A DNA stretch of 64,000 nucleotides from Eledone cirrhosa. Lineage: Eukaryota. The position numbers and the translations under genes are program-made. Every line of letters begins with the position of its first letter. Positions within the stretch are counted from its first letter, which is position 1. The stretch is from assembly GCA_964016885.1 (NCBI GenBank), contig OZ024740.1:375410001-375474000 (forward strand). Reading direction: 5' to 3'. Under the pieces are notes generated by a model that was given only the letters and a program-made list of their open reading frames with translations, was not told the origin of the DNA and ran no database searches. This document shows, one piece after another, positions 257 through 63,395 of this stretch.

Positions 257-1579
257 AGGCTTCAAGTAATTTTATCTATAACAACCATTGTTTCAAATAT
301 TACATCGTATAGAAAACAGAATTCTTTCAAAAATATGAATGAAATGAAACTATGCACGAAACGTTAGATATATAAAGTTCCTTGACAATATTCAAATTTC
401 AGAGTATTTTATTGTTCTTCGGTGTTTACCTGTCAGTAGCTGACATACATTTCTATAATCGATTATAGTAATCATACATTGATGAACAGATATAGTAGGA
501 AATGTCAAGCTATCAATTTTAATTATGGCAGTTCTGTCATGCAATCTCATACTGGTAATTAGGTATATTATGAGAGCCTTGTTGGTAGATGTTTGGACGT
601 ACATATAATATCATCATACAGCCTACAGACACGATATATGCGTGTGTGTGTGTGAGTGCGTTTGTATGTGCGCATACGCGTTCTTGTTATTGATAGACTA
701 ACACCACAGTATACACATCCAATAGAGAATGATACATTCAGTTAGTATAATAACGTCTCAATGTTTAGGAAAAATTTAAACTAGACGAATGATCGATAGC
801 ATCATGTTAAGTTTAATGTCCCTGATTTATATCAATGCGAAATACAATTTCTGTATCGCAACTTCCTGGTTAAATTAAGATAGTAATAAATAACAGTTAC
901 TCAGAGATGACATTAGGCATATGAACACCAAATAAGAAGATATATAATTAGTCCTAAAGTGTAAAAATCGCCATGCTATTGTATTAGCCGTTGTTATGTA
1001 TGCTGTTCTTGGTAGAGGAAACAAATCAGTAACGTATTGGAAAAAAGGCATTGCTGTATCTAATTACGTCAATTTAGGTTTCCATTTCCTGATGTCAATT
1101 ACATAATGGCCAGCCATTTATTGAGGTACGTAACGGATTTTACCATCCTCAAACATTTGTTGATTTGTGACTATATTTGTAAAACGCCAATTAGTAACGT
1201 CATTCTTCATAAGCGGATTAAGTGTACACGTGGGTACAGCTTGTTTTTTTTTCAATTAACCAGACAAACAAATGCATTGCGTCGATCTTAACAAATGCAT
1301 TTGAACAAATTAGCACACATTTTAATCAATTAATGAAACTACTAATTACTCCCATGAATTATAGCATCATTACAACATTGTTACATCAGATTGAATAAGA
1401 CATAAAGAACAAAATATGTTGTCAACGTCAAAGGAAAAGAAGATACCATTCGCTATATCCAGGTTTTATTCCATAACCCTTCTGTATCTCACCGACTTGA
1501 TCGATCCCGAGAAGAAATATATATGCAACCATCCGACAACATCTGTTGTGAGATGTATAAGGTGAGATGAGAAAATAGA

Positions 1580-2020
1580 TGGGTCTTTCTCAGGGCCTTT
1601 CTACACTGGTTAGCTAATTTCCCTCCAGGGGTAGCGTCCACAAACATGACACTCTGGTATCTCTGGTTGTCGTACCATGAGGTGGCTTTCCCTATCTTAT
1701 GTCTAGCCTTATCTAAGCTATTCCATGATTTGCACCTGTATAATGGGCAAATTCCTTTCATGTCCAGTTCTATGAGGGTATTATACTTCTCCATGGCTCC
1801 TTCGTATACTCTGACACTGTCTTTTTGGTTGTAGCCAGAGAAATGCATGCGGTTGATGAAGTGTTGGATGTGTCTTTCCATTTCTGTTGTGTCGCACATG
1901 CGGGACACAATCTTCATCACTCATACCAAATCTGCCATCAGAATATTAAACTTAGCACTACTGGACATTGCAGAGTTTTTGAGTATCAGGTATTTGGAGG
2001 CCATGGGTTTAGCATAGACA
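1580..2020 (-). pseudogene. Penelope-like element fragment, RT thumb/linker region
   Basis: Minus-strand translation [17 protein letters not shown]...RMHFSGY...PLYR.K.W...SVMFVDATPGGKLA resembles the PLE post-RT region (recognised from memory); in-frame TGA near 1923. Confidence 0.65.
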
Positions 2021-2089
2021 CAAATATAACCCTCCCCAAATATAACAATATTTGCTTCGACACACTATTTAATATAAAAAACCTCACAA

Positions 2090-2256
<167 letters not shown>

Positions 2257-2354
2257 AGTATGTATACGTATATATATAATTAACAGCCGTACTAAGAGTG
2301 AGAAATGAAATTTCCTTTCATTTTTTCCGTTTATATATATATATATATATCATA

Positions 2355-5300
2355 AATTGGTTGAGATTAGATTTGGTGATATGTGGCTGCGCTTTCTAGC
2401 AGCAGGCCTGGCCGCCGTAAGCAACCAATCACACGCTTTCTCTCTGGCTGGTACACAGCTACATAGCGATTTTAGCAATTTTTGAATCTAAATTTGCCGC
2501 GATTGGTTAGAAAAAATATAAATGTATGTTTTTGAGTTTGTCTCCTGATGATCCTTACTCTGGATAATTCATATTATTTGGATGTCCTAAATAAGGAAGA
2601 AACCATGGTAGAGATATAATTACGGTATGTGCGCATTTTTTCTAAGTTTAATTTGACTACTAATTGTGTGTGGTTGATGGTATATTTGGTCGGATTCTGC
2701 ATGCTGCCGAAATGTTGTATAAATAATGGAACGCGGCTGCCGCGAAGAGGCTACGATCAATTGTTTGTCAGAGATTTCCACATAAGAAAATTTATTCTTA
2801 AAGCTAGCTGGATTTGATTTTGTATATGGTTAATTATGCTAATTAGAAGAAGAAATAGTATATATTTTAATATCTGATGATTCTATAGACATGATTTATG
2901 ATATAATGCTCTGATTCTTTTATTTTAATTTATTAATTCTTCATTGAGCTTAAAAGTGAACAGTTGCAACATATATATCTTTCAGTTAATTTTATGTATA
3001 TGATAACCTTTATATTTAATAATCTCCCAATTGGTTGAGATTAAATTTGGCGATATGTGGCTGCGCTTTCTAGCAGCAGGCCTGCCCGCCGTAAGCAACC
3101 AATCACACGCTTTCTCTCTGGCTGGTACACAGCTACATAGCGATTTTAGCCATTTTTTAATGTAAATTTGGCGCGATCGGTTAGAAAAACTAAATGTCTG
3201 TTTTTGAGTTTGTCTCCTGATGATCCTAACTCTGGATAATTCATATTATTTGGATGTCCTAAATAAGGAAGAAACCATGGTAGAGATATAATTACGGTAT
3301 GTGCGCATTTTTTCTAAGTTTAATTTGACTACTAATTGTGTGTGGTTGATGGTATATTTGGTCGGATTCTGCATGCTGCCGAAATGTTGGATAAATAATG
3401 GAACGCGACTGCCGCGAAGAGGCTACGATCAATTGTTTGTCAGAGATTTCCACATAAGAAAATTTATTCTTAAAGCTAGCTGGATTTGATTTTGTATATG
3501 GTTAATTATGCTAATTAGAAGAAGAAATAGTATATATTTTAATATCTGATGATTCTATAGACATGATTTATGATATAATGCTCTGATTCTTTTATTTTAA
3601 TTTATTAATTCTTCATTGAGCTTAAAAGTGAACAGTTGCACACATATATATCTTTAATTTAATTTTATGTATATGATAACCTTTATATTTAATAATCTCC
3701 CAATTGGTTGAGATAAAAATTTGGCGATATGTGGCTGCGCTTTCTAGCAGCAGGCCTTCCCGCCATAAGCAACCAATCACACGCTTTCTCTCTGGCTGGT
3801 ACACAGCTACATAGCGATTTTAGCCATTTTTTAACCTAAATTTGGCGCGATCGGTTAGAAAAACTAAATGTCTGTTTTTGAGTTTGTCTCCTGATGATCC
3901 TAACTCTGGATAATTCATATTATTTGGATGTCCTAAATAAGGAAGAAACCATGGTAGAGATATAATTACGGTATGTGTGCATTTCTTCTAAGTTTAATTT
4001 TACTACTAATTGTGTGTGGTTGATGGTATATTTGGTCGGATTCTGCATGCTGCCGAAATGTTGGATGAATAATGGAACGGGGCTGCCGCGAAGAGGCTAC
4101 GATCAATTGTTTGTCAGAGATTTCCCCATAAGAAAATTTATTCTTAATGCTAGCTGGATTTGATTTTGTATATGGTGAATTATGCTAATTAGAAGAAGAA
4201 ATAGTATATATTTTAATATCTGATGATTCTATAGACATGATTTATGATATAATGCTCTAATTCTTTTATTTTAATTTATTAATTCTTCATTGAGCTTAAA
4301 AGTGAACAGTTGCACACATATATATCTTTAATTTAATTTTATGTATATGATAACCTTTATATTTAATAATCTCCCAATTGGTTTAGATTAAATTTGGCGA
4401 TATGTGGCTGCGCTTTCTAGCAGCAGGCCTGCCCGCCGTAAGCAACCAACCACACGCTTTCTCTCTGGCTGGTACACAGCTACATAGCGATTTTAGCCTT
4501 TTTTAAATCTAAATTTGGCGCGATCGGTTAGAAAAACTAAATGTCTGTTTTTGAGTTTGTCTCCTGATGATCCTAACTGTGGATAATTCATATTATTTGG
4601 ATGTCCTAAATAAGGAAGAAACCATGGTAGAGATATAATTACGGTATGTGCGCATTTCTCCTAAGTTTAATTTTACTACTAATTGTGTGTGGTTGATGGT
4701 ATATTTGGTCGGATTCTGCATGCTGCCGAAATGTTGGATAAATAATGGAACAGGTCTGCCGCGAAGAGGCTACGATCAATTCTTTGTATGAGATTACCCC
4801 ATAAGAAAATTTATTCTTAAAGCTAGCTGGATTTGATTTTGTATATGGTTAATTATGCTAATTAGAAGAAGAAATAGTATATATTTTAATATCTGATGAT
4901 TCTATAGACATGATTTATGATATAATGCTCTGATTCTTTTATTTTAATTTATTAATTCTTCATTGAGCTTAAAAGTGAACAGTTGCAACATATATATCTT
5001 TAAGTTAATTTTATGTATATGATAACCTTTATATTTAATAATCTCCCAATTGGTTGAGATTAAATTTGGCGATATGTGGCTGCGCTTTCTAGCAGCAGGC
5101 CTGCCCGCCGTAAGCAACCAATCACACGCTTTCTCTCTGGCTGGTACACAGCTACATAGCGATTTTAGCCATTTTTTAATCTAAATTTGGTGCGATCAGT
5201 TAGAAAAACTAAATGTCTGTTTTTGAGTTTGTCTCCTGATGATCTTAACTCTGGACAATTCATATTATTTGGATGTCCTAAATAAGGAAGAAACCATGAT

Positions 5301-8300
5301 AGAGATATAATTAAGGTATGTGCGCATTTTTTCTAAGTTTAATTTGACTACTAATTGTGTGTGGTTGATGGTATATTTGGTCGGATTCTGCATGCTGCCG
5401 AAATGTTGGATAAATAATGGAACGCGACTGCCGAGAAGAGGCTACGATCAATTGTTTGTCAGAGATTTCCCCATAAGAAAATGTATTCTTAAAGCTAGCT
5501 GGATTTGATTTTGTATATGGTTAATTATGCTAATTAGAAGAAGAAATAGTATATATTTTAATATCTGATGATTCTATAGACATGATTTATGATATAATGC
5601 TCTGATTCTTTTATTTTAATTTATTAATTCTTCATTGAGCTTAAAAGTGAACAGTTGCAACATATATATCTTTAAGTTAATTTTATGTATATGATAACCT
5701 TTATATTTAATAATCTCCCAATTGGTTGAGATTAAATTTGGCGATATGTGGCTGCGCTTTCTAGCAGCAGGCCTGCCCGCCGTATGCAACCAATCACACG
5801 CTTTCTCTCTGGCTGGTACACAGCTACATAGCGATTTTAGCCATTTTTTAATCTAAATTTGGTGCGATCAGTTAGAAAAACTAAATGTCTGTTTTTGAGT
5901 TTGTCTCCTGATGATCTTAACTCTGGACAATTCATATTATTTGGATGTCCTAAATAAGGAAGAAACCATGATAGAGATATAATTAAGGTATGTGCGCATT
6001 TTTTCTAAGTTTAATTTGACTACTAATTGTGTGTGGTTGATGGTATATTTGGTCGGATTCTGCATGCTGCCGAAATGTTGGATAAATAATGGAACGCGAC
6101 TGCCGCGAAGAGGCTACGATCAATTGTTTGTCAGAGATTTCCCCATAAGAAAATGTATTCTTAAAGCTAGCTGGATTTGATTTTGTATATGGTTAATTAT
6201 GCTAATTAGAAGAAGAAATAGTATATATTTTAATATCTGATGATTCTATAGACATGATTTATGATATAATGCTCTGATTTTTTTATTTTAATTTATTAAT
6301 TCTTCTTTGAGCTTAAAAGTGAACAGTTGAAACATATATATATCTTTAATTTAATTTTATGTATATGATAACCTTTATATTTAATAATCGCCCAATTGGT
6401 TGTGATTAAATTTGGCGATATGTGGCTGCGCTTTCTAGCAGCAGGCTTGCCCGCCGTAAGGAACCAATCACACGCTTTCTCTCTGGCTGGTACACAGCTA
6501 CATAGCGATTTTAGCCATTTTTGAATCTAAATTTGGCGCGATCGGTTAGAAAAACTAAATGTCTGTTTTTTCGTTTGTCTCCTGATGATCCTAACTCTGG
6601 ATAATTCATATTATTTGGATGTCCTAAATAAGGAAGAAACCATGGTAGAGATAAAATTACGGAATGTGCGCATTTCTTCTAAGTTTAATTCGACTACTAA
6701 TTGTGTGTGGTTGATGGTATATTTGGTCGGATTCTGCATGCTGTCGAAATGTTGGATAAATAATGGAACGGGGCTGCCGCGAAGAGGCTACGATCAATTG
6801 TTTGTCAGAGATTTCCCCATAAGAAAATTTATTCTTAAAGCTAGCTGGATTTGATTTTGTATATGGTTAAATATGCTAATTAGAAGAAGAAATAGTATAT
6901 ATTTTAATATCTGATGATTCTATAGACATGATTTATGATATAATGCTCTGATTTTTTTATTTTAATTAATTAATTCTTCTTTGAGCTTAAAACTGAACAG
7001 TTGCAACATATATATATCTTTAATTGAATTTTATGTATATGATAACCTTTATATTAAATCATCTCCCAATTGGTTGAGATCAAATTTGGCGATATGTGGC
7101 TGCGCTTTCTAGCAGCAGGCCTGCCCGCCGTAAGAAACCAATCACACGCTTTCTCTCTGTCTGGTACACAGCTACATAGCGATTTTAGCCATTTTTTAAT
7201 CTAAATTTGGCGCGATCGGTTAGAAAAACTAAATGTCTGTTTTTGAGTTTGTCTCCTGATGATCCTAACTCTGGACAATTCATATTATTTGGATGTCCTA
7301 AATAAGGAAGAAACCATGGTAGAGATATAGTTACGGTATGTGCGCATTTTTTCTAAGTTTAATTTTACTACTAATTTTGTGTGGTTGATGGTATATTTGG
7401 TCGGATTCTGCATGCTGCCGAAATGTTGGATAAATAATGGAACGGGGCTGCCGCGAAGAGGCTACGATCAATTGTTTGTCAGAGATTTCCCCATAAGAAA
7501 ATTTATTCTTAAAGCTAGCTGGATTTGATTTTGTATATGGTTAAATATGCTAATTAGAAGAAGAAATAGTATATATTTTAATATCTGATGATTCTATAGA
7601 CATGATTTATGATATAATGCTCTGATTTTTTTATTTTAATTTATTAATTCTTCTTTGAGCTTAAAAGTGAACAGTTGCAACATATATATATCTTTAATTT
7701 AATTTTATGTATATGATAACCTTTATATTTAATAATCTCCCAATTGGTTGAGATTAAATTTGGCGATATGTGGCTGCGCTTTCTAGCAGCAGGCTTGCCC
7801 GCCGTAAGGAACCAATCACACGCTTTCTCTCTGGCTGGTACACAGCTACATAGCGATTTTAGCCATTTTTGAATCTAAATTTTGCGCGATCGGTTAGAAA
7901 AACTAAATGTCTGTTTTTGAGTTTGTCTCCTGATGATCCTAACTGTGGATAATTCATATTATTTGGATGTCCTAAATAAGGAAGAAACCATGGTAGAGAT
8001 ATAATTACGGTATGTGCGCATTTCTTCTAAGTTTAATTTTACTACTAATTGTATGTGGTTGATGGTATATTTGGTCGGATTCTGCATGCTGCCGAAATGT
8101 TGGATAAATAATGGAACGCGACTGCCGCGAAGAGGCTACGATCAATTGTTTGTCAGAGATTTCCCCATATGAAAATTTATTCTTAAAGCTAGCTGGATTT
8201 GATTTTGTATATGGTTAATTATGCTAATTAGAAGAAGAAATAGTATATATTTTAATATCTGATGATTCTATAGACATGATTAATGATTTATGATATAATG

Positions 8301-8405
8301 CTCTGATTTTTTTATTTTAATTTATTAATTCTTCATTGAGCTTAAAAGTGAACAGTTGCAACATATTTATATCTTTAATTTAATTTTATGTATATGATAA
8401 CTTTT
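2355..8405 (+). repeat. Head-to-tail tandem array, 9 units of 672-674 bp, each with a hammerhead ribozyme (retrozyme/pLTR-like)
   Basis: HHR core CTGATGA recurs at 2545, 3217, 3891, 4564, 5236, 5908, 6582, 7256 and 7930; TA runs flank both ends. Confidence 0.95.
2539..2616 (+). ncRNA. Type I hammerhead ribozyme (unit 1; repeated in all 9 units)
   Basis: Stem I TGTCTC/GAGATA; CTGATGA; stem II TCCTTA...TAAGGA with inner hairpin TCTGGATAAT/ATTATTTGGA; GAAA; palindromic stem III ACCATGGT; GUA cleavage after 2610. Confidence 0.85.
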
Positions 8406-8589
8406 ATATATATATAAATTAGATATGTATTTTTCGGGAGAACTGTTATTCTGCGCAAAACTCTTCTGCTAGACAACAGGTCACTGATAGCGGATAGTGA
8501 TACCGCAAACAGATATGATAGTTATTTGAGATATTAGCGGGCAACTGTCAGAAGGCTGAGCAATTCCAGACCAAATGCGGTAAACTACA

Positions 8590-11888: not shown

Positions 11889-11891
<3 letters not shown>

Positions 11892-11906
11892 GATAAATCT
11901 ACCAAA

Positions 11907-12332
11907 ATGTACGGTAGAAACAAAGCAAATTGCCCATTAAAAGGTAATTGCCTTATTAATAACATAGTATATAAATGTAAAATTAACACTAAGGACTCAA
12001 CTTATTCATATATAGGAGCTACTTCTAACTATTTTAAAGTAAGATTTAATACCCACAAACACAGTTTAAAAAATGCCGCATTAGCTAATACAACATCCTT
12101 AGCTGAAATAATTAATAATTATATAAAAAGGAATATAGATTATAACCTGACCTGGAGTGTGCTCAAAAACGCCAGCCCTTATCAAAATAATAGATATGAA
12201 TGTAGATTATGTTCCCAGGAACTTTTTGAAATAATGAAATCTAAGGATATCCTATTAAATAAGCGACAGGAATTAATTATATCATGTAATCATAAATTGA
12301 GAAGAACTTTTAAATATTATAAATCTAATTAA
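11907..12332 (+). CDS. GIY-YIG endonuclease domain of PLE (N-terminally truncated)
   Basis: [13 protein letters not shown]...[13 protein letters not shown]...W...CRLC..E...LLNKRQEL...C.H. Confidence 0.85.
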
Positions 12333-23088: not shown

Positions 23089-26000
23089 ATGATGTTCCAG
23101 AACAATATAAAAGAGATAATTGGCAATTTAGGTTCTGGAACAAAAAAGATCATTGGCAATAAGGGCAGGGGCCCCAGGTTATCACAGCCTGGGCCCGCTC
23201 GTCATCGTGCCATTGTAATAGAGCCAAACAAGGCATTTAGTCTTAGCTGCTGGAACGTACGGACGCTGCTTGAGAGGGATTCCTTGGGGCGTCCTGAACG
23301 AAGGACCGCTCTTGTTGCAAAGGAGCTTCGACGTTACGATCTTGACATCGTGGCTTTATCTGAGACGAGGGTAGCTGGAGATGGTCATCTTACGGAATTT
23401 GGTGGAAAATATACATTCTTCTGGAAAGGAAGAGATGAAGGAACCAGAAGAGAGGCTGTGGTAGGATTTGCTGTTAAGACTGTGCTTGTGAACAAGCATA
23501 GAAGAATTCCCAGTAGGGATTAGTGAGCGTCTTTTGTCCATGAGAGTTCCGCTGGACAAGGGAAGATATGCTACGCTGGTGAGTGTGTATGCTCCAACTA
23601 TGAGTTCTGTCGATGAGGAAAAGGTGTCCTTTTACCATGCCTTGAAAAGTGTTTTAAGAAATATCCCTCAGGCAGACAAAGTCATCGTGCTTGGTGACTT
23701 TAATGCTAGAGTGGGTAGGGATTTTAACACATGGAATGTAATCGGAAGGCATGGGGTGGGAAAGTGTAACAGCAATGGTATGCTCCTGTTGCAGATGTGT
23801 GAGGAGCTGGATCTGTGTGTTACCAACACCATGTTCCAATAAAAGAACAAATTCAAGACCACATGGATGCATCCTGCATCTAAGGAATGGCATCTTTTGG
23901 ACTACGTCCTAGTCAGGATGCGTGACAGACAGGATGTGCAGTGTGTTCGTGTTCTTCGTGGAGCCTAGTGCTGGACGGACCACCGCCTGGTACGCGCAAA
24001 TGTGAAACTAATCACTAAACGTAAAATCCGGGCTCCTGGTGCTGCCCTGCCCAAAAGATTGAATGCTGCTCGTCTTAAGGATAAAAATGTGAAGAGGACA
24101 TTGGAAGAAGAGATGCAGGCTGCAGATCTTGGTGAGGATTGGCCGACCCTTAAAAAGTCGGTTTATGATGTAGGCAGGCGTGTTCTAGGATTGGCGCAGA
24201 GGAAACATCAGGACTGGTTTGATGAGAATGATGTACATATAGAAGACTTGTTGGCTGATAAGAAGCGTGCTCTGTCACGCTACTTGACAGCAAAATCACA
24301 GGAGAGGAATAAGTTGCATGAGGAACTCAGGGATGTAAAATCACGTGTTAGGCGGAGTCTTTCTCAGATGAAGCATCAGTGGTGGAGTGAGAAGGCTGGT
24401 GAGATACAAACTGCGTCAGATTCCAATAACACAAAGCTGTTGTACAGTCTCTTGCGTGAGGTTTATGGACCGTCTTCTTCTCTGGTGACACCGCTTCGCA
24501 GCAAGGATGGCAAATAACTTCTTCGTGACTCACGAGGAATTCTACGAAGGTGGCGAGAGCACTTTGATGATCTTTTGAATCAGCCGTCTGTCGTCAGTGA
24601 AGATTTCCTCAATCTAATTCCAGAAAGTCCTGTGAAAGTAGCTCTCGCAGAACCTCTGACGCTTGTGGAGGTTGCAGTGGCTATTTCGAAGCTGAACAGT
24701 GGAAGATCTCCAGATATGGATGGCATACATGCTGAGCTCCTACAATATGGTGCTGAGAGACTCCTGCAACATCTTCACTCTTTCTTTGGCAGGATATGGG
24801 CTAATGAATCCGTATCTGAGGACTGGAGACATGCAGTAATGGTGGTCTTGTGCAAAGGAAAGGGTAACAGGAACGATTGTGCGAACTACAGAGGTATATC
24901 ATTGCTTTCTGTCGTAGGGAAAGTTTTATGGAGGGTGCTTCTGGACCGTCTGCTGACACACATTGCAGATTGTGTTCTTCCTGAAAGTCAATCTGGTTTT
25001 CGTGCTGGACGCGGCACTACTGATATTATCTTCTCAGCTAGACAGCTCCAGGAGAAGTGCATGGAACAAGGCTTGGATCTGTATCAGGTTTTTGTCGATC
25101 TGACAAAAGCTTTCGATACTGTTAACAGAGATGCATTATGGAAGGTTCTCCAGAAACTTGGTTGCCCTGATGAGTTCCTTGCTTTAGTTAGGTCTTTCCA
25201 TGACGACATGAAGGCTTGGGTTAATGTCGGGGGTAACATATCGGAGCCTATCTCAGTAAAAAATGGAGTGAAACAGGGGGATATTCCAGCACCGACCCTG
25301 TTTGCCATATACTTTGCAATGGTTTTCTGTATTGCATTCAGGAATTGCGAGCATGGTGTTTACATCCGATATCGAACCTCAGGCAGCATATTTAACATCA
25401 GACGCTTTGCTGCGAAGACAAAAGTATTTACATCAATCATAAGAGACCTCTTGTATGCAGATATTTGCGATCTTGTAGCGCACACAGAGAGTGATATGCA
25501 GCACATTTTGAATACATTTTCTGACGCTTGCACTGCCCTAGGTCTGACTGTCAGTCTCAAGAAAACCGTCATCATGTACCAACCTGCCCCTGGTAAGCAG
25601 TACACTGAACCAAATATCTATGTGTATGGCAAACGACTTGGAGTGGTTGATCAGTTTGTCTACCTGGGAAGCACTGTCAATCGATACAGCAACCTTGACA
25701 GTGAAATCTCACTTACGATTAGGAAAGCAAGTGATGCTTTCGAAAAGCTAGAAAGGCGACTCTGGGGTCGGCGAGATATATGCAGGAGGACAAAGGTAAA
25801 AGTGTACAGGGCATGTGTGCTCTCTTGTCTTCTTTATGCCTGCGAGACCTGGGTCACATATCGACACCACCTTAAGCAATTGGAGCGTTTCCATCAGATC
25901 TGTCTCAGACGGATCCATGGCGTTCACCGCAGGGACCACATCAGTGATGTCGAGATTTTGGAAAGCTCTATGTGTGACAGTATAGAAGCTCTTGTGCTTA

Positions 26001-26635
26001 AGCAACGACTCCGTTGGAGTGGTCACCTTGCCAGGATGAAGGATTCTAAAATACCAAAACAACTCTTTTATGGAGAGTTGGTTAAAGGAAAACGACCGCC
26101 ACATAAACCAAAAAAGAGGTATAAGGATTCCTTGAAAGCCTCTCTGAAAGACGCTAACATCTCTGCTGATACATGGGAGAATATTGCTGCTGATCGTAAT
26201 AAATGGAGAAAGACTGTATATGAGGGAAAAGTTGCCTTTGAGGCATATCGAATCGCATGCGAGAAAGTAAAGCGGGATGTGAGGAAGGGCATTGCTGTTG
26301 CACTTCCAGACGGTGAGGGTCCTCCTATGGTGCTGACATGCAGCGTATGTGCGAGACACTGCCTAAGCAAAGCTGGACTCGAAAGTCATCTTCGCAGTCA
26401 TAAAGTAAGACCAGTGGTTGACTACCAGGCTGCTGTTGGAGATGCTACTCATCATGCTTGCCAAACATGTGGTAGAGAATGTAAATCAGCAGGAGGGCTC
26501 AAGCGACATGCAAAAGTACACGAACTCCAATCACAGCCGACTATTCCCAGTGAATGTTTTGGTTCCCGACTCTGTGCAAGACATTTTAGATCATTGGCTG
26601 GGCTAAAAAGCCACATTCGATCGCAGCGCTGTTAG
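23089..26635 (+). pseudogene. RTE-clade LINE ORF (APE + RT + C2H2 zinc fingers), disrupted
   Basis: APE: WNVRTL, LSETR, VYAPT, GDFNA, TDH. RT: NYRGISLLS, FVDLTKAFD, GVKQG, YADI (YADD lost), YLGS. C-terminal CxxC..H..H repeats. Frameshift ~23495, stops at 23840, ~23966 and 24515; (GT)n tail. Confidence 0.92.
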
Positions 26636-34068: not shown

Positions 34069-34342
34069 TATAATAATAATGATAATAATAATAATAATAA
34101 TAATAATAATGGTTTCATTAGTTTACATAAACTAGACATTAAGGACAGTACAGGACAATACAGGACGGTACAAATGGGCATTTCTGCGTGTAAAAAAAAC
34201 AGAGGATGTAATAAAATAACAAAGAAAAATTCCCCAATAGGGGCAAGACTTCCGAGGGACATTTGTGGAGAAAGCCCATTAAAAGACCACAGTGACGCCG
34301 ACCACCAGGGCAAGTGCCCTCTCCCAGTTTTCCACCTTTAAT

Positions 34343-37300
34343 TTACAGACACATACTCAGAGTAGGCCCATTCACTCGGGCCATTCTTGCTTCTCTCACC
34401 CATCTTTCAACAAAATGCTGGGAAGAGAGCAGTTCCCTCTCTACCTTGATTTTCCTTTTCAAATGAAATCTGAAAAAGTTAATCAGGGCATCACCGAAGA
34501 GGTAAGTGCAAGTCTTCAGCCCTTTCAAACGTGTCTACCATACTATCTCTTTCGCCATGGCCACCAGACAGATAAAAACCGCCTGCCCTTTCCGGCTAAA
34601 GGAAGAGGGCAGGGCAATCCTCACGATGGACTAGCTGATAGCCGGATCCGTCCTACACGTGACAGCAGGTGTTCGACATAAACCCACAAGTCAGCAATGC
34701 TCGGACACTGGACGAGTGCGTGCAGGACGGTTTCGTCGCCCTGCGCGCATCACGGACATGCCCGGCTGACGGCACCTCCATGCCTGTAGAGTTTATCCCG
34801 AACTGGCAAAGCTCCCCGGTAGCACTGCCAGGGCAGGGATTTCTGGAAGTTGTCCATAGGCCCCGGCCCGAAAGTCCTTCCGAAGAGATTGGCTAGTTGA
34901 TTTTCGTCGACGCCTAGAGTTTCTCCAAGTACGTCATCGCTCTTCCCCTCAACTAATCCTCTATAGAACGCCAAGGTGGAGTTTCCACCGATCACATTGC
35001 CCGATTGGTCGAGAGCTGTGTGCACCTGAAGACATTCAAGTCTCCAAGCGCTCCCTCTCGGTTTTCGCTTGACCCAGGACTGCAGCTCCGTCAAGGAGAC
35101 GAGCTGGGGAAAGACGTGTCTAGCAAACGGCGACCACACCTGATCACCGTCGAGGAAGAGGTGGAGATGTCGTAGCCTGAGCGCGTGTCTGCGCATCATC
35201 AGCCACGGCATGCCCAGCCCTCCACGTAGCGGGTGTTGACAGCAGATGGACCGCCTGACCATCGGAGCGCGTCCCTTCCACAAAAAGCTAAAGAGCAAAC
35301 GCTCCAGTGCAGTCAGGCGGGGCTTAGGACAAGGTACGACGGTCAAGCGGTAGTAGATGACGGACGCGATGTACGCGTTAGCCACGTCCGCTCGAGCTTT
35401 CAGGGATAGCTTCCTCTCGGCCCATTTCTGGGTGAGAGAAGCCACCCTGCTCGTCACCTCGTTCCAGTTTTTGTCCGTCTGGAGGTCCTGACCGAACCAG
35501 GACCCTAGCAATTTAACCGGTCCGTCCGTCCAGCGCCCCACGACGCTGTTGGACGGCATGGACCTGCCTCTCCAGGTGCCGAGCTGCAGGCCCACTGACT
35601 TTTCCTGGTTGATCATTGCTCCTGTCACCGCTTCGTATTCTCTTAGTGTAGTGCCGATCGCCTCGATGTGTTTGGCGTTCGACACCACTACGGTGATATC
35701 GTCCGCATATGCTGACACGGATCTTCCGCATCCTAGTTCCCGCAGGACCCCCCTCAACGTCTCCAGTATGTGCAGTAATGGTTCGAGAGTCAATACGTAC
35801 AAGATGCCGAGAGGGGACATCCTTGGCGGACCGAGCGCATGATGTTGAACGGTTCCGAAAGGTCACCGTTCACTCTCACCACCGAGCAAATGTCGCTGTG
35901 CATGGCAGAGATCCAGCCTCTGAAGAGGGGCCCAAAGCCAGCCGCCCTCATGACTGCTGCTAAGTAACGATGGTCGACCCTATCGAAAGCTTTCGACTGA
36001 TCGTGGATGGATCTGTCGGGAATGACGCACGTCTGCGCCTCTCCCACCAGACCACCAACGACAAGCACCAACCTCTTTGCTAGCTCCTTGGCCAAAATCG
36101 TAAACTCTGTGCTTAGCAGAGTTATGGGCCTAAAATTATCTATGTTATCCCCCTTGTTCGGATCCTTTCTCAGCATCCCCACCGCTCCTCGGCTCACAGA
36201 GCTGGGAATTCTCCCGTTCTGTTGCCAGTTGCAGTAGACAAGTCTGGCATTTGTACGTAAAGTTCATAGGGCAGACCATCCAAACCAGGCGATTTACCCC
36301 TTGTGCAGCCAGTCATTGCCTCCCGTACTTCAGCGGCTGTTATCGGCTTTTCGCAAAACTCCGCCTCAGTGGCCGAGAGCCGCGGAAGTCCGTCGAGGTA
36401 GACACTAAAGTCTATCCTTCGATCCGGCCCGCAGCTGCCCCCGAACAATTGAGCGAAGTGTCGCTGAAAAGCTTCACACATTTTCCCAGGATCCAATAGC
36501 ATGCGCCCGTCGTGGTCCACCAAAGACCGGATCGTGGCTTTGTAGCCACGACGCGCCTCCGACACTCGGGCCCATTGAACGGCTTTCGTCCCAACGTGTC
36601 TGAGAGCACGCACCCTAGCTCTGACAACGCAGCCTTCGTGCTTGGCATTGAAGAATTGGTCAAGGGCCAATTTCGCCGCAAGTACGTCGGTCCCGATGCC
36701 TTTGCAAAGCGCCTCGTCTAATTTTCTAACTAATTCTCCCTCTGCTCTATTTTTCTCTATTGCTAAAGCCTTACTAAACCTAATTGACTCTATTCCAATT
36801 GCTCTTTTCAGAGCAAACCACCACTTGTTGTTGACGATGGCTCCCGTCAAGGCCCGCTTAACTAGTTCGCTAATCCTATCTCTCTAGGCCTGGCGCGCTG
36901 GTAAGGACGCGTTTATCTTCCAGTAGCCGGGTCCGCGACTATGAAGCCTATCTAAGTGAAGCACACAGATCACGAATTTGTGGTCCATGTAGATGACTAT
37001 CTTGAATTGTGGACAGCCTATGCTAGACCTATCTATTTCCCTACAAAATACTCTATCTAGATATGATCTGGATGACCCTATGCGATTTGCCCAAGTCCAC
37101 ATTGGTACATTCGGGAAATCCAATCGGTACCTGTCAGACAGTTCAAAACGCCTAGCAGGTTGGTGAGACTCTTGCACCCTCCTTCCCTATCCACTAATCC
37201 CTCACAGTCCCAGCGTGCATCTAAGATCCCGTTCCAGTCGCCCACTAACACTAAAGAGCAGGACGTTCCAAGAAAGGTCTCCAGACGCCGGAAGAAATCA

Positions 37301-37658
37301 GGCCGCCCTGCTCCTGTCGGGGCATAGACGGCTATTAACCTGAAAGCTTACCCGTTTCCGCTGGTCACGTCCAGCACCACCAACTTACCTTCTCGGTCCA
37401 GGAAGATGGCCCGTATGGCAAGATCCAAACCTCTACGAAAAAGCACAGCAACTCCACTCCCCGATCCCGGATGGATGGGAGATGCGTACACATCGTAGCC
37501 GCCGAAGATCGGTGCGAATGCCCGTGCTTCGGAGATTCTGGTCTCGCTGTTGGTCACTACATCTATGTTTAGTGACCTGAGGTCGTTGAGCAGGTGGCCC
37601 TGCTTCCATGACGCCCCAAGCCACGAGCATTTATGCTGCCTATTCTGAGTGAGGTCAT
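34343..37658 (-). pseudogene. Tx1-like ORF2 (APE, RT, C-terminal zinc finger), frameshifted
   Basis: SETR, SYLDRV, DHK, GYWK.N, GKSPGLDGLP, NFRPITLL, DQSKAFDRV, RQGCPLS, AYADD; deletions near 36000 and 36240 relative to copy B. Confidence 0.9.
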
Positions 37659-37692
37659 GTTAAAATGGAGTGGGAAAGATGGGAAAGACCAC

Positions 37693-39651
37693 TTACCTTA
37701 CTTCTCGTAGAGGAAGGACGGTTTTTCCATCCTTTTCACTGCTTGTGGCCTCCTCGGGAAGGATGTCCTTATAAATCCTCCTGGAGAGTGCTTGTCGGAA
37801 GTCTCCGATGTCTTTGGGGAATTTTTGTTTTAGTGTCATGTACGTTTTCTGTGTGATGCGAGTGATTTGTATGTGTGGAGGTGGTGTGAATTTTTGGGTT
37901 GTTGTGTAGTCTTTTTCTGTGATGCTGGTGTTGTGTTGGATGTAGTGTAATAATTGGTTGTTGTTCAAATTTAATGCTGTGTAGTGTGTATTGTTACGGT
38001 TGTTTATTTTTGTTTGCGTTTGGTGTGGGCTTGCTTCTGTTTCGCATTTTGGTGACTTTTGTGGTCTAGGTGATGGTGGTGTTGGGGTTAATGATGGTGT
38101 TGGTGTTTGGGGTCATGGGGTTGGTGATGCTGGTGTGGATGGTGGCATATCTGTCCTAACTTTTTTGTTTGTTAATTTATTTGTTTCCCTCTGTATTTTG
38201 TTTTTGGAGGGGGAAGGAACAGCATTTTTTCTTTTTTGGTTTCTTTTTTTCTTTTTTCCTGATACCGTTTCCCACTCCTCGTCGTCACAATCTGTCTCCA
38301 GTTGGGATAGGCCGGGGAGTGGAAAATCCTCCACAGGCGTTAGTTTTGGTTGTGGCGTGGTGGATGGTGTAGGCGCTGGTGCTAGTTATGAAGCGTTGGG
38401 TGGTGGTGGTGTTGGTTTTGCTACTGTTGCTGGGGTTGTTGCTGTTATAGTTGCTTCTGTTGTTGCTGCTACTGTTGTTGCTGCCATCTCTGCTACTGGT
38501 GGTGTTGATGGTTGAGTTACTGGGGTGGGTAAGAGAGGTGGCCTCAACCTTTTAGCATGTGAGGGCAGAAAGCCCTTAGGTGGGTTCCTTCACCACAAAC
38601 GACACACCCAGGCCTTCTGCCCTCGACAATTACGTTGAGGTGGCTGCCGTCAGTGAGGTCTATTACCTCTGGGGTCACCTCAATGCTTTTTTGGTCCGCT
38701 TGGATCAGGAGCTCCATCCCAGATCCGGACCAGTTCTCCTGCTTTTCTTTTGCTATTGCTATTATCTTTGTGTTGGCTTCGATGCCGGCGAGAACGGCCG
38801 CTATTAGCCAGGGAATTTCGATGGCCGGTGGAACGTGGGTCACCCTGATCTTTACGAGTCTCTGGCCGCAATAGCTTGGGACGAGTGTGAAGTTGTTACT
38901 TCTTAATGGGGCCATGGATTGTTCTCTAGCCTCCTGTGGTGTTTCAAAGAACACGTCCACGGTTCCATACTTCTGCCCACATCTGATGTGGGTTTTTCTT
39001 GCCCACACATGTCCCAAAGCTTTTTGGATTTGGGACTCGGATGCCCGTTCCACTCGGCGCGATTTTACATTAATTGTTCGATACGACACGGTGCATAGGC
39101 GCCGATGCTCCATTTTATTAGGTGGGGGTGAGGCTGACCCTGTACCCTTCTTTATTTACCATTTTTTTGGCATTTTCTAATTCCTCTTGAGTTACCTGAA
39201 ATGCTTCCCACTATTTTGCTACTCTGGCAAAACTCAGGGTGTATTTTTTAATTTCATTGTTGCTGTTGTTGTTATCGTTATTTTTGTTATTATTAATTTT
39301 ATTTTCAGTTGTGGTGGTGTTGACGTCAGTGTTGTTCGGTGGGGAAGAGTCCATTTTGCTTGAATTCATTTTGACATCACGAGTTAATTTATTTTTTTCT
39401 TCTTTTGTTTCTGTTGTCGCGGTGGTGGTGGGGTTGGGGGTTGTCGCGGTGGTGGTGGTGGTGGCGGCTTTAACACCTGCTGTTATTGGTAATGGCGGGA
39501 AATGAATGTCTGCCTGAGACAAATTTAAAATATTGCTACTGCTTAAATTTTTTGTGTTGGCAAACGTAGTAATATTTACAATGGTGGTGTCGGTGCGAGG
39601 TGTTAATTTATCAGGCAGACTGTCAGCATCGTGTGGCTGTGAGACTTCCAT
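37693..39651 (-). pseudogene. Tx1-like ORF1 (gag-like, zinc knuckle), broken
   Basis: CVVCGEGTHLRAFC knuckle, SFARVAK, W.TV..KKKKR, Pro/Thr-rich linker. Confidence 0.8.
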
Positions 39652-39862
39652 ATTTTTTTCAAAGAAATTTTTTTTTATAATTATAAATGTTAAAATTTTG
39701 GTCACAAGACCCCAATCTTTTTGAGTGTCCTTTTCGGAAAATAATGTATGTGCGTTTATATACAGTTAACAATAACATTTTCCATAAATGGCAATTTTTA
39801 ACAAACGGAAATAACAAACCTTTGCGGAGCTCACGATGATACGATTTACTACGTAGGTCGCC

Positions 39863-39910
<48 letters not shown>

Positions 39911-39912
<2 letters not shown>

Positions 39913-42900
39913 GGGAAGAAGACGCACATGGTGGATAGAAGGTCATGAAATCGCTCCCGTAAGTTTTGATTTTTTAACATATTTAAATCAATTGTGAAAT
40001 AACAATTCTTAGTACAAATGATGCATAACGCATCCGGCTTGAGTCCCAACAAATTCGGATCCATAATATATTGTTATATCGCTCAAATATTCAATTTTGT
40101 ATTATACATTTTATATTCAAAAAAGAAAATGGTTATAAATGTCTACACTATATAGAACAGCCAAATAACAGCAATTTCACCAACACCAGAAACTAGATAC
40201 ACTACCTACCCCATCACCCCTCTGTGTACACTAAACACAACAGCCAGATAACGGCAATTTCACCACCACCACCACCAATCTCAGCATAATAATAATAATT
40301 ACTATTATTATGTCTCAAGTTTTAACAAAATGTTTAATAACAAAATGTTTAATTCCAATATCAAGGAAATATGTCAACACATATACGCGTCTAACCCCAT
40401 AAATTCTCCGATCAAACAAAAATACAGTCTATTTAACAAAACTCAGTAACGACAACGCCATCACTACAGTCACCGCCGCCGCCCATCCATCATTACTACC
40501 ACTATCCCATCACCATTGCCACCGCTCCTTCATTGCTACCACCGCTATCCCCCCATTACCTTCTGTTAACTTACGAAAGGGGAAGATGGCGGTATCACTA
40601 GACAATATTAATAAACAAGATTAATATTTAATTTTGGATCAGGAATGTTAGAGTCGAAAAGGAGGAAAATGACAAAATGACTAAATAACTAAAGATAATT
40701 TCACCACCAACACAACCACCACTACCACGATGAAAACTCTAGTCAAGTCGACTCGACTCGACCGTTATTTCTACTCTAACTTCAACACGATCACTACAGT
40801 GATGCAAACACATCACCACCACCACTGCCTCATTATCTCTACCGCCGCTATTCTCTCCCGCTGCCCCCTGCTACATTGTAGAATCCACACTAAAAGAGGA
40901 AGGCATCAAAATATATAAATAGACTGAATTGATGACCCGGTCAAAATGAAAAAAACAAAAAACAAAATCAAAGCAGCACAGCAACAACGAAAAACGTAAA
41001 GAAAATAAGAATGAAGAGAAAAACAAACAGACGGACCGAGAAGGGAAGGGAAAAACTAAGTCAGACATTCAAACACTACATTACAATGGAACTTATGCTT
41101 ATTCATTTTTGGGTTTATTTTTGCCTGTTTGTTTGTTTATTTATGTTCGTCTACAGCGTGATAATGCCACACAAAAATCACGTGGAGTGACGAAACCACC
41201 GGAGATGATAAATTCACCGGTGGTTATGTAACCATACATTCACCAATCCTCGATAAGAGTGTTTAAATGTCGAACCTAAACAGTTCGAATAACGGTGAAA
41301 TGGAGACTAGAATGTCATGTGACAGACTCTCACCCAACAGGTGCTCCCTGGCTCAGCAGCAGGGACCTGGCTGTCAACCAAATACTGCTGGTGTCGGAAG
41401 AAGAAGAAGAAGGAAAGGGACCAGAACCAACTGGACAAAATAATTGAATAGAACTGTTATGCAATGTTACCTGAAGAGTAACCCCAAGGAGAAAGGCTAT
41501 AGAAAACGGATGCATAACATCTGGAACGAGATTGGTCTATTTAAATTAGATGAACAAAAATTGGCCGGGCAGGCTCGGGTAATAAGAACTAATGGGTGGA
41601 TAAGCGAGCTGGAACTGGAGGAACTGAGCAACTAGATTAGCTTAGAGATGGAGAGTGGAGTATGCCAGGCAAACGAGCCAGTGGGAAATGAAGGTGAAGA
41701 GGTCGAGAGAATGGAGGAACTAACCGAATCAGGCAATGTTCTGAATGCTGAGATAAATAATACCTGGAACAGAGATACGGCCACTGAGGAGATGAATGCT
41801 GACGGGCTAGGACAAGATTTGGTTGATATCCTAAACTTAGTGGTAGATGAATTGAACAATGATAGTGAGAGACCTATGAACCTAAGATTTGTAGACAGGA
41901 AAAAGTTAAAAGAAACAACAGCTAAGGTAAACAAAGTCATCCCATACTTCACCAGTGCAACAATATCCTCAAAGCAACAGCGAATACGGTGAGGAAACTA
42001 CTTGGTATAAAAGCGAGAGGAAACAACAGACAAGAACGATCAGAACCTTGGTGGAAGAAACGACTGAGTGGTCAAATCAGGGAAATGAGAAATGACATTG
42101 GAAAGCTTGAGTCCCTACTGAATGGGACACTAAAAAAACATAGATACTAAAAATAGACTGGAAATAAAGTACAAAACTAGGAGGAAAAAGCTAAATATTA
42201 TCATAGAGGAACTGAAGCAACGCATTGTAGCAAAGAGTGCAAAAATCAGGCGATACGAGAACAGGGTCAGTCAGTATAGACAGAACCGCATGTTCGACAA
42301 CAACCAGAAGATGCTGTTTGGACAGCTTGAAGGGAAAGAAAGAGGCAATGACTTGATCCCTGAGGCGGAACAAACTAAAACATTCTGGAGAGGAATATGG
42401 GAGCAGGATGTTAAACATAATGACCAGGCAGTGTGGATTGAGACAGTACAGAAGGAGATTAGTGAACAGGCACACCAACAAACTGATTTGAGTATCACAG
42501 TTGAAACTCTTAAGGGGCAGGCCCAAAAATTAACCAACTGGAAATCACCAGGCCCAGATGGTGTGCAGGGGTATGTCTGAGGAAATCTACCATCACCTCC
42601 ACACAAACAACTTGTTATCGGACGAACAGAAAGGATGCCGAAAGAAGTCACGTGGTACAAAGGACGAGTTACTTATTGATAAGATGGTAATGAGGAATTG
42701 CAAGAGGAGACACACTGGTCTTGCCATGGGATGGATAGACTACAACAAGGCATTTGACATGGTGCTTCGTTCTTGGATCACCAAAAGCCTGGAGATCTTC
42801 AAGGTGGCAGATAACATCAGACAGTTGTTGGGCAAAAGTATGAAGTCCTGGGAAACAGAGTTAACATCAGCTGGAGAATCCTTGGGAAACGTGAAGATCA

Positions 42901-44540: not shown

Positions 44541-44547
44541 TAATAAC

Positions 44548-44596
<49 letters not shown>

Positions 44597-44837
44597 TTTT
44601 CTTTATTAACCACGGGTTTACATAAAGTAGACATTAAGGACAGTACAGGACAATACAGGACGGTACAAATGGGCATTTCTGCGGGTAAAAAAAACAGAGG
44701 ATGTAATAAAATAACAAAGAAAAATTCACCAATAGGGGGGAGACTTCCGAGGGACATTTGTGGAGAAAGCCCATTAAAAGACCCGAATGACCCTGACCAC
44801 CAGGGCAAGTGCCCTCTCCCAGTTTTCCACCTTTAAT

Positions 44838-47800: not shown

Positions 47801-48254
47801 CAGTCCCAGCGTGCATCTAAGATCCCGTTCCAATCGCCCACTAACACTAAAGAGCGGGACGTTCCAAGAAAGTCTCTAGACGCCGGAAGAAATCAGGCCG
47901 CCCTGCCCCTGTCGGGGCATAGACGGCCACTAATCTGAAAGCTTGCCCGTCTCCGCTGGTCACGTCCAGCACCACCAACTTACCTTCTGGGTCAAGGAAG
48001 ATGGCCCGTATGGCAAGAACCAAACCTCTCCGAAAAAGTACAGCAACTTCTCCCCCCGATCCAGGACGGCTGGGAGTTGCGTACACATCGTAGCCGCCGA
48101 AGATCGGTGCGAAGGCCCGTGCCTTGGAGATTCTGGTCTCGCTGATGGCCACTACATCTATGTTTAGTGACCTGAGGACGTTGAGCAGATGGCCCTGCTT
48201 CCATGACGACCCTAAGCCAGGCGCATTTATGCTGCCTATTCTGAGTGAGGTCAT
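44838..48254 (-). pseudogene. Tx1-like ORF2, frameshifted
   Basis: MTSLRIGSINAPGL, SETR, VYAP, GDWN, SYLDR, TDH, RQGCPLS, YADD, CPRC..ETVLHVLVQC. Confidence 0.9.
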
Positions 48255-48289
48255 GTTTAAAAGGAGTGGAAAAGATGGGAAAGACCACT

Positions 48290-50228: not shown

Positions 50229-50439
50229 TTTTCAAAGAAAAATTTTTGTTTGATAATTATAAATGTTTAAATGTTCGGCTCAAGGCCCCAATCTTTTTGG
50301 GTGTCCTTTTCAGATAACAATGTATGTGCACTTATATACAGTTAACAATAAAAATTTTCCATGAATGGCAATTTTAAACAACTGAAAATAACAAACTTTT
50401 GCAGAGCTCACGATGATACGATTTACTACGTAGGTCGCC

Positions 50440-50490
<51 letters not shown>

Positions 50491-62739: not shown

Positions 62740-62784
<45 letters not shown>

Positions 62785-62831
62785 GTTATTCCGGGTTGAA
62801 TCGGAGGTAACCACAGTAAGTAAGGTACTCA

Positions 62832-63005
62832 ATACATAGCAGAGTATAACAGTTTTAATATAGATGAGATTCTACAGGACTAGAACTGTTTCATTCATTA
62901 GAAATCATCAGGAATCCCTGAGATTCCTGATGATTTCTAATGAATGAAACAGTTCTAGTCCTGTAGAATCTCATCTATATTAAAACTGTTATACTCTGCT
63001 ATGTA

Positions 63006-63051: not shown

Positions 63052-63136
<85 letters not shown>

Positions 63137-63140
<4 letters not shown>

Positions 63141-63395
63141 TAAGACATGTCTATAGAATCACCAGATAAAATATATACCATTTCCTCTCCCAATTAGCAT
63201 AATTAACCATATAAATAATCGAATAGACCAGGCTATAAGAATAAGGGTTCTATGAAGAAATCTCCAACAAATAACCGAAACTAACCCTTCGCGTCGGCTG
63301 CGACGGAATATTTATCGAATATTTCTACAGCGTAATAGCCCACTTATACAGTCAATTAAACAGAATTAGGTGTAAAATAAACTAGGAGAAATATG
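63137..63395 (-). repeat. Diverged solo fragment of the 673-bp array unit
   Basis: CATGTCTATAGAATCA.CAGATA..AATTAGCATAATTAACCATATA matches the reverse complement of ~2635-2905. Confidence 0.75.

What the first reader, a model, noticed from the sequence alone, without database searches (positions are those of the whole stretch)
2355..8405. Nine-unit concatemer of a 673-bp hammerhead-ribozyme monomer: candidate large animal retrozyme / circular RNA replicon
Seen: nine head-to-tail units with no credible ORF, each carrying one type I HHR at the same phase, with TA runs on both sides. Self-cleavage of a read-through transcript would release ~673-nt monomers. Established: non-LTR retrozymes and PLE pseudo-LTRs use minimal type I HHRs whose palindromic stem III works as a dimer, and retrozyme monomers circularise. 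Inference: this is a non-autonomous element copied by PLE RT (rolling-circle reverse transcription or template jumping). Its monomer is longer than the few-hundred-nt animal retrozymes I recall, and its stem II is extended.
Basis: partly seen in the sequence, partly recalled or inferred. Interest (0 to 1): 0.9.

Follow-up and report, generated by a model that had tools for sequence, protein, structure and literature searches.

The report
Penelope-mobilised retrozyme with a drifting hammerhead
This is a nine-copy array of a 673-base non-coding repeat that carries a hammerhead-ribozyme motif and is scattered through an animal genome with the same two-ended insertion pattern as Penelope-like retrotransposons, so it is likely a passenger copied by their enzyme, and its ribozyme has lost a standard base pair, so it is predicted to cut only weakly.

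Summary
Observation confirmed: nine head-to-tail units of 672-674 bp, no ORF over 46 codons, one type I hammerhead motif per unit, predicted cut after 2610. The unit is one branch of a genome-wide non-coding family (at least 1,700 hammerhead-bearing copies). Copies sit in (TA)n and end at two fixed sites about 111 nt apart. In 29 of 29 typed inverted insertions the two arms end at different sites, as in coding Penelope-like elements (PLEs) of the same genome; two copies are joined directly to coding PLE pieces. No coding element with this unit as terminal repeat was found, so it is best read as a non-autonomous PLE (non-LTR retrozyme). Three corrections. (1) The size is not new: a 2026 preprint reports 51-972 bp. 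(2) The nine units share mosaic, array-specific variants, so the array likely grew after insertion, not in one rolling-circle pass. (3) The base pair closing stem II drifted from G-C to A-U to A·A to a one-base deletion in the lineage that kept spreading, and no 5' end falls at the cut site (0 of 112). Cleavage, transcription and circles are untested, and the partner enzyme is unidentified.

The parts
2355..8409 (+). Array of nine head-to-tail non-coding units of 672-674 bp; the last ends at family end-site 2
2346..2357 (-). Likely 12-nt inverted arm ending at family end-site 1; only 4-5 bases are diagnostic, the rest overlap the TA run and the unit start
   Evidence: reverse complement of unit bases 538-549 matches the left junction
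2332..2350 (.). Left (TA)n target run
8406..8417 (.). Right (TA)n run, short
2539..2616 (+). Type I hammerhead motif of unit 1: stem I 2539-2544 with 2611-2616, core 2545-2551, 47-nt stem II 2552-2598, GAAA 2599-2602, palindromic stem III 2602-2609, predicted cut after 2610. Same motif at 3211, 3885, 4558, 5230, 5902, 6576, 7250, 7924
2552..2598 (+). Stem II with non-canonical junction: pairs U-A, C-G, C-G, U-A one base off, leaving an extra A before GAAA; no G10.1-C11.1 pair
   Evidence: pair probability 0.64-0.99 for the shifted register, 0.01 or less flush
5290..5301 (+). Unit 5 (and unit 6 at 5962-5973): stem III palindrome broken by one G-to-A change
2894..2905 (+). Family end-site 1 (unit base about 549), inferred reverse-transcription start; recurs at 3577, 4251 ... 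8297
3002..3015 (+). Family end-site 2 (unit base about 660; BLAST ends 660-666), inferred second start, about 111 nt after site 1; recurs at 3688 ... 8409
2874..2880 (+). Second CTGATGA in each unit, without a GAAA partner; not scored as a ribozyme
   Evidence: altered in the sister subfamily
3030..3174 (+). Promoter-like motifs in each unit (shown for unit 2): ATTGG 3030-3034, CCAAT 3099-3103, TTTGGCGC 3167-3174; the labels CCAAT box and E2F site are recalled, function untested
63134..63345 (-). 5'-truncated copy of a sister subfamily (about 72% identical over full length; full copies have the canonical G-C stem II), ending at site 1 in (TA)n

Best explanation
The unit is a non-coding, hammerhead-bearing repeat dispersed through (TA)n microsatellites, likely a non-autonomous Penelope-like element (non-LTR retrozyme) copied in trans by the reverse transcriptase-endonuclease of a coding PLE, and this array likely began as one short insertion that grew to nine units by recombination in the DNA. 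Shown: dispersal, TA targets, two fixed 3' ends, opposite-facing arms that use one end each, arms longer than one unit that cross the predicted cut site without scars, and mosaic variants in the array. Inferred: a tandem copy is transcribed; a PLE protein nicks both strands of a TA run; one strand primes inside the RNA at site 1 and the other at site 2; the two cDNAs join at 1-4 nt microhomologies. The template must be longer than a linear cut monomer, so it is either an uncut multimer or a ligated circle. For this subfamily I put about 55% on uncut or partly cut multimers and 45% on circles, and about 55% on at least weak cleavage as a dimer. The partner is unidentified: a Hydra-type PLE is slightly favoured (long tails, similar ribozyme layout, one co-linear chimera) over a Neptune-type (one inverted chimera).
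For: Dispersal: 2,979 first-look candidates, 40 scored; 305 exact 23-mer matches, control 0; 1,377 exact 16-mer matches for G-C subfamilies, control 3. Ends: 112 of 133 arms in 76 loci end at site 1 (66) or site 2 (46). Asymmetry: 29 of 29 typed inverted pairs in 124 loci are mixed; coding PLEs here do likewise (mixed pairs: Hydra-type A 4 of 4, Hydra-type C 7 of 7, Neptune-type A 3 of 3, Neptune-type B 1 of 2). Two internal start sites bounding a 'tail' were shown in vitro for an anole PLE (PMC11167929). Chimeras: in 131 loci two distinct insertions join the unit directly to a truncated coding PLE (L051 inverted, 2-nt microhomology; L158 co-linear). Template: 85 of 112 arms cross the cut site, 48 exceed one unit, none starts within 10 nt of the cut, and the junction shows no indel in 95 copies. 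Non-autonomy: no nucleotide or protein match to five coding PLE families; 30 of 30 sampled G-C loci are the same non-coding unit; only 5 genome matches continue past the junction differently, none into a PLE ORF. Local growth: 21 variants shared among units, 11 of them not seen in two or more dispersed loci; 47 of 136 site pairs incompatible; a roughly 45-unit sister array has exact six-unit block duplications. Ribozyme drift: ladder tree with a clade of 69 rows lacking the flush pair (support 99/98), sister to an A-U copy; the deletion form occurs at 18 other loci.
Against: No autonomous partner or parent was found; only five coding families were compared in a genome that has many more. The tail (about 111 nt) matches none sampled (58, 60, 139, 160 nt). 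The two chimeras point to different clades, and each could be an old deletion joining two insertions. No RNA evidence exists either way. The left inverted arm of this array rests on 4-5 bases. The mosaic pattern could instead come from copying an unsampled, already mosaic source array. Against a dead ribozyme: core and stems I and III vary at 1 of 28 positions against 138 of 584 elsewhere, the one core change is at free position 7 and the stem I change keeps the pair (biased, since most loci were chosen by exact matches to the ribozyme); an axolotl retrozyme with a U-U mismatch at the base of stem II still cleaves. The tree root is a midpoint only.
Confidence: 0.8

Rival explanations
1. Classical retrozyme cycle in one pass: efficient dimer cleavage releases 673-nt monomers, a host ligase circularises them, and a PLE enzyme went round the circle nine times to write this array.
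For: Arms longer than one unit cross the cut site without scars; segments of one insertion share locus-specific alleles; core conserved; circles are shown for coral, mussel and axolotl retrozymes (PMC7229834).
Against: One pass predicts only private mutations, yet units share array-only alleles in incompatible patterns; the longest of 112 dispersed arms is 1,811 nt; stem II junction is non-canonical; the circle folds only slightly better than shuffles (z -1.6, 40 shuffles); 1 of 9 predicted Xenopus dimers cleaved in the preprint. Circles as template for the first short insertion remain possible and are counted within the best explanation.
Confidence: 0.08
2. The copies are terminal repeats (pseudo-LTRs) of an unsampled coding PLE, left by 5' truncation; the array is a satellite grown from one of them.
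For: Same ends, tail and ribozyme layout as pseudo-LTRs of coding PLEs; the preprint finds retrozymes related to pseudo-LTRs and discusses satellite birth from them.
Against: All 48 arms longer than one unit loop back into the unit; no family continues past the junction (exact-motif search only); 31 non-inverted 5' flanks share no common upstream element apart from four pairwise hits; no homology to five coding families. Ancestry from a pseudo-LTR is still likely but old.
Confidence: 0.07
3. A DNA-level satellite or rolling-circle DNA element spread by recombination or extrachromosomal circles, with a ribozyme relic.
For: Long arrays clearly expand at the DNA level; no RNA data.
Against: Fixed 3' ends with random 5' truncation, inverted arms, strict end asymmetry, TA targeting, ladder-like subfamilies and chimeras with PLE coding pieces are retrotransposition signatures.
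Confidence: 0.04

Closest known systems
Non-LTR retrozymes of animals (Cervera and de la Pena 2020, PMC7229834; Li, Clavereau and Pollet 2026, bioRxiv 10.64898/2026.07.22.740005)
   Same: Non-coding tandem repeat, one type I hammerhead per unit, short palindromic stem III, low GC (33%), monomers to long multimers, coexisting with PLEs; size inside the 51-972 bp range of the preprint.
   Different: Larger than the 170-400 nt invertebrate circles tested in 2020; 47-nt stem II that has lost its closing pair; no discernible target duplication in (TA)n; insertion structure (two ends, inverted arms) read directly, where the texts I read argue for PLE mobilisation from co-occurrence and sequence kinship.
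Pseudo-LTRs and 'tail' of endonuclease-bearing PLEs (Poseidon PAc of anole, PMC11167929; Neptune and Hydra clades, PMC8557442)
   Same: Partial tandems, inverted 5' arm, optional tail on one end, two start sites, (TA)n targets, hammerhead upstream of the start sites.
   Different: No ORF; tail about 111 nt against 30-40 bp in those papers; both ends have 4-6 TA-like bases, whereas PAc starts at a site not homologous to the target.
Non-autonomous Chlamys PLEs such as MRC1 (PMC8557442, passage seen)
   Same: Non-autonomous, pseudo-LTRs, multicopy head-to-tail insertions, microsatellite targets.
   Different: Those resemble their autonomous partners at the 3' end and most Chlamys lack canonical hammerheads; here there is a hammerhead and no matched partner.
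Axolotl retrozyme Rtz_353 with HHR_Amex2 (PMC7229834)
   Same: Mismatch at the base of stem II; better cleavage expected as a dimer.
   Different: U-U there; A·A and then a one-base deletion here, with a monomer twice as long.

Membership tests
Non-LTR retrozyme | Tandem repeat with a type I hammerhead motif in at least two consecutive units | tested here: met
   9 of 9 units carry the core; 7 of 9 have an intact stem III palindrome
Non-LTR retrozyme | Non-coding | tested here: met
   longest ATG ORF 46 codons; no match to PLE proteins. LTR-type primer and polypurine sites were not searched
Non-LTR retrozyme | Dispersed monomers, dimers and multimers | tested here: met
Non-LTR retrozyme | Canonical hammerhead geometry (stem II closing directly on the core, usually G10.1-C11.1) | tested here: not met
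   not met in the window subfamily; met in sister subfamilies
Non-LTR retrozyme | Self-cleavage in vitro | not testable with these tools
   needs a co-transcriptional assay
Non-LTR retrozyme | Expressed as linear and circular monomers | not testable with these tools
   no RNA run available to lay
Non-LTR retrozyme | Highly self-paired monomer circle | tested here: inconclusive
   60% paired, z -1.6 against 40 shuffles, one monomer
PLE-type insertion (non-autonomous) | Random 5' truncation, partial tandems, inverted 5' arm | tested here: met
PLE-type insertion (non-autonomous) | Tail on one end only, i.e. two fixed 3' ends | tested here: met
   29 of 29 typed inverted pairs mixed; about 111 nt apart
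PLE-type insertion (non-autonomous) | (TA)n target preference as in Neptune and Hydra clades | tested here: met
   flanks
PLE-type insertion (non-autonomous) | Sequence kinship with a coding PLE's terminal repeat | tested here: inconclusive
   none with five families (best E 0.012, AT-rich); other families unsampled; two direct chimeras
Autonomous PLE | ORF with reverse transcriptase and GIY-YIG endonuclease | tested here: not met
Minimal PLE hammerhead (min-HHR) | 7-8 bp stem II, unpaired base between positions 9 and 10.1, G10.1-C11.1 | tested here: not met
   47-nt stem II and no G-C pair; definition from PMC4209133

The most novel reading that the evidence does not exclude
A retrozyme lineage caught shedding its ribozyme: after the stem II closing pair was lost the element stopped cleaving and circularising yet kept spreading for many subfamily generations, copied from uncut multimers by a two-headed PLE enzyme that primes each target strand at a different fixed site and can even pair two different RNAs in one insertion. 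The graded natural series (G-C, A-U, A·A, deletion) would then show directly that circles are not the transposition intermediate of animal retrozymes.
Probability: 0.25. Interest if true: 0.75.

Novelty: new variant of a known kind. Interest (0 to 1): 0.5.

Why it matters
How animal retrozymes move is open: the 2020 paper and the 2026 preprint name PLEs as likely helpers and propose circles as intermediates, and the preprint says the mechanism remains to be worked out. This family shows the PLE footprint on a non-coding hammerhead repeat in its insertion structure, and offers a natural series of four ribozyme junctions in a lineage that kept spreading. That makes two questions directly testable: whether cleavage and circularisation are needed for mobility, and how a PLE enzyme assigns its two start sites to the two target strands. 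The array itself is ordinary for the family.

Tried and rejected
Rfam: no hammerhead hit. Pfam on three neighbouring ORF pieces: nothing useful. Sequencing runs: no RNA holder listed; three contig sets of unknown kind from one sample were laid and show presence only. Earlier findings: nothing shown. Partner search: five coding PLE families fetched (two Neptune-type, three Hydra-type by the motifs in PMC8557442 section 11; no protein tree built); none shares sequence or tail length with the unit; two scans of 1.25 Mb of held loci for hammerheads found no other family with this stem III. Template jumping between cut monomers: rejected, no scars and no 5' ends at the cut. The window array as source of the dispersed copies: only one other locus (L270, 1.1% from the array majority) shares its alleles, direction unresolved. 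A cluster of five 5' ends at unit bases 57-61 as a transcription start: not significant by my estimate after allowing for about 135 windows. The second CTGATGA as a ribozyme: rejected, no GAAA. The bacterial promoter scan does not apply. The tail was first noted as 114 nt from BLAST ends and corrected to about 111 nt. Rows dropped before counts: duplicate or overlapping loci (7, 2, 4, 3), arms touching a locus edge, one chance match. The paper on hammerhead variants that cleave as dimers (PMC5785218) was not available; it may describe tolerated stem II junctions. Supplements of the bioRxiv preprint were not seen and may list similar families.
Full report
Observation. The array is as described: nine head-to-tail units of 672-674 bp from 2355 to 8409, 7-32 substitutions apart, longest ATG ORF 46 codons. 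Each unit carries a type I hammerhead motif: stem I of up to 6 bp, core CUGAUGA, a 47-nt stem II, GAAA, an 8-nt palindrome as stem III, and a predicted cut after GUA at 2610 and at the same phase in every unit. As a monomer stem III is essentially unformed (pair probability 0.01), while two palindromes form a duplex of -11.2 kcal/mol, so any activity would be as a dimer; units 5 and 6 have a broken palindrome. Rfam misses the motif, but the fold is supported across 30 distinct relatives (90.5% of cells paired, 27 cells changed on both sides, 0 of 500 shuffles, relatedness not controlled).

A genome-wide family. The genome is a 3.0-Gb animal assembly. The unit gave 2,979 first-look candidates, of which 40 were scored. 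An exact 23-mer of the ribozyme's 3' half occurs 305 times (control 0), and a 16-mer marking older subfamilies 1,377 times (control 3); all 30 loci fetched from the latter were the same non-coding unit at about 64-82% identity. Most insertions are under three units, but one array has about 45.

Insertion structure. In 76 loci, 112 of 133 arms end at one of two sites, unit base about 549 (66) or about 660 (46), usually running into (TA)n, while 5' ends are scattered over the whole unit. The sites are about 111 nt apart. Many insertions have two arms facing away from each other and joined at 1-4 shared bases. In 124 loci, 29 such pairs could be typed at both ends and all 29 were mixed (17 one way, 12 the other); with the observed end frequencies about half would be mixed by chance (my arithmetic). 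Coding PLEs of the same genome behave alike: mixed pairs in 4 of 4, 7 of 7, 3 of 3 and 1 of 2 cases for four families, with tails of 139, 160, 60 and 58 nt. Partial tandems, an inverted 5' arm and an optional tail are the published PLE signature (PMC8557442, passages and section 11 seen), and the tail was shown in vitro to be the stretch between two internal reverse-transcription starts (PMC11167929, parts 1-2 of 4 read). The window array fits: it ends at site 2 on the right, and its left junction matches a 12-nt inverted arm from site 1, though only 4-5 bases are diagnostic.

Non-autonomy and partner. The unit has no significant nucleotide or protein match to five coding PLE families, which have their own terminal repeats and hammerheads. 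A search for copies that continue past the unit junction into something else gave 5 matches, each different and none with a PLE ORF (exact motif only). In 131 loci, two distinct insertions join the unit to a coding PLE piece with no TA spacer: L051, inverted to a truncated Neptune-type copy with TA at both outer ends, and L158, co-linear with a truncated Hydra-type copy. They suggest shared machinery but point to different clades, and deletion cannot be excluded. Clade names rest on motifs in PMC8557442, not on a tree. One Hydra-type repeat shares the layout (long stem II, 8-nt palindrome, long tail). The partner is not identified.

Template. A linear monomer cut at unit base 254 could give at most about 406 nt from site 2. 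Yet 85 of 112 arms cross the cut site, 48 exceed one unit, none begins within 10 nt of the cut, and 95 junctions show no indel. The template is therefore a circle or an uncut multimer; jumping between cut monomers is unlikely. The predicted circle is only slightly more stable than shuffles (z -1.6).

Ribozyme drift. Sister subfamilies close stem II with G10.1-C11.1 flush on the core (pair probability 0.81-0.98), the pair described as highly conserved (PMC4209133, parts 1-2 of 4 read). A tree of 96 copies built without the ribozyme is a ladder: G-C at the base (midpoint root), then an A-U copy, then a clade of 69 rows (99/98) with an A·A mismatch or its derivatives, with the one-base deletion form confined to the crown (that form needs 4-5 changes on the tree, one origin not excluded). 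In the window form stem II pairs one base off and leaves an extra A before GAAA. This form occurs 29 times: 7 in the window, 21 in 18 other loci, 1 by chance, so it spread. Against a dead ribozyme: among 77 loci of this clade the core and stems I and III vary at 1 of 28 positions against 138 of 584 elsewhere (p 0.01), and the only core change is at free position 7, but most loci were picked by exact ribozyme matches, so the test is biased. An axolotl retrozyme with a U-U mismatch there still cleaves (PMC7229834, parts 2-4 of 6 read). For PAc, cleavage was dispensable for insertion in vitro and needed the protein. I therefore predict weak, dimer-dependent cleavage at best.

How nine units arose. 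One pass round a circle predicts only private mutations. Instead 21 of 77 variants are shared between units, 11 of them not seen in two or more dispersed loci, and at several sites the array's majority allele is absent from all 70-74 dispersed segments; 47 of 136 site pairs fail the four-gamete test. The 45-unit array contains near-exact block duplications (units 8-13 equal 14-19), and it too is bounded by an inverted site-2 arm and a site-1 end. Local expansion by unequal exchange is the likely cause; copying from an unsampled mosaic array is not excluded.

Comparison and novelty. The kind is known. The 2026 preprint (10.64898/2026.07.22.740005; parts 1-3 of 5 read, supplements not seen) defines non-LTR retrozymes this way, reports units of 51-972 bp and up to 300 repeats, derives them from PLE terminal repeats, and found cleavage in 1 of 9 dimers. 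So size and copy number are not new. Non-autonomous head-to-tail PLEs are also described in algae. In the texts read and the listings of seven searches I did not see strict two-site asymmetry reported for a retrozyme, tails above 100 nt, or stepwise loss of the stem II pair in a spreading lineage; most subscription papers are not searchable, so this is not proof of absence. Other papers seen as passages only: PMC2837043, PMC544870, PMC9977147, PMC6765202.

Verdict. A real element, new variant of a known kind. Interest 0.5: the array is ordinary for its family, but the family makes the role of cleavage and circles in retrozyme mobility testable.

Noticed in passing
window 2277-2335 (+); full copies L161:4194-4881, L136:2016-2688, L237:536-2436: 3' end of a second non-coding tandem family of about 430-465 bp with its own short hammerhead and two ends about 57 nt apart, close to the 58-60 nt tail of Neptune-type PLEs here; in L174 such an end is joined inverted to a Neptune-type coding piece. 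Tail length may mark the mobilising enzyme.
   Followed up: partly
window 1489-2092: Separate Neptune-type PLE insertion: inverted reverse-transcriptase piece plus a forward ORF-start end running into the long TA run; family has open frames over 1,000 codons elsewhere.
   Followed up: partly
window 11889-12329 (+) and its 3' region to about 12,900: 5'-truncated Hydra-type PLE (linker and GIY-YIG end; 61,458 first-look candidates) whose terminal repeat has a hammerhead with a stem II of about 100 nt.
   Followed up: partly
L042, L048, L282, L285: Hydra-type PLEs have tails of 139 and 160 nt, far longer than the 30-40 bp in the papers read, with the same end asymmetry.
   Followed up: partly
L123-L126 (G000 C1, about 92.986-93.016 Mb): Array of about 45 units of an older subfamily with higher-order block duplications.
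   Followed up: yes
window 17087 (-), 17843 (+), 61829 (-); L158:6200-6310: Hammerhead-like motifs with the U3-A8 core variant described for PLEs.
   Followed up: no
window about 62,780-62,990: Short inverted duplication containing another hammerhead-like motif; a relative in L167 lies before a Hydra-type ORF start.
   Followed up: no
window 51469-54894 (+); 42534-44072; 24518-26635; 34070-50489: LINE-like ORFs, one open for 1,141 codons, and a roughly 10.5-kb diverged tandem duplication (34-44 kb against 44.5-55 kb) made of LINE pieces; labels from motifs recalled, not scanned.
   Followed up: no
L010 and L013; L144 and L145: Pairs of near-identical insertions with shared flanks 0.45 and 0.23 Mb apart: segmental duplicates or haplotype copies.
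   Followed up: no
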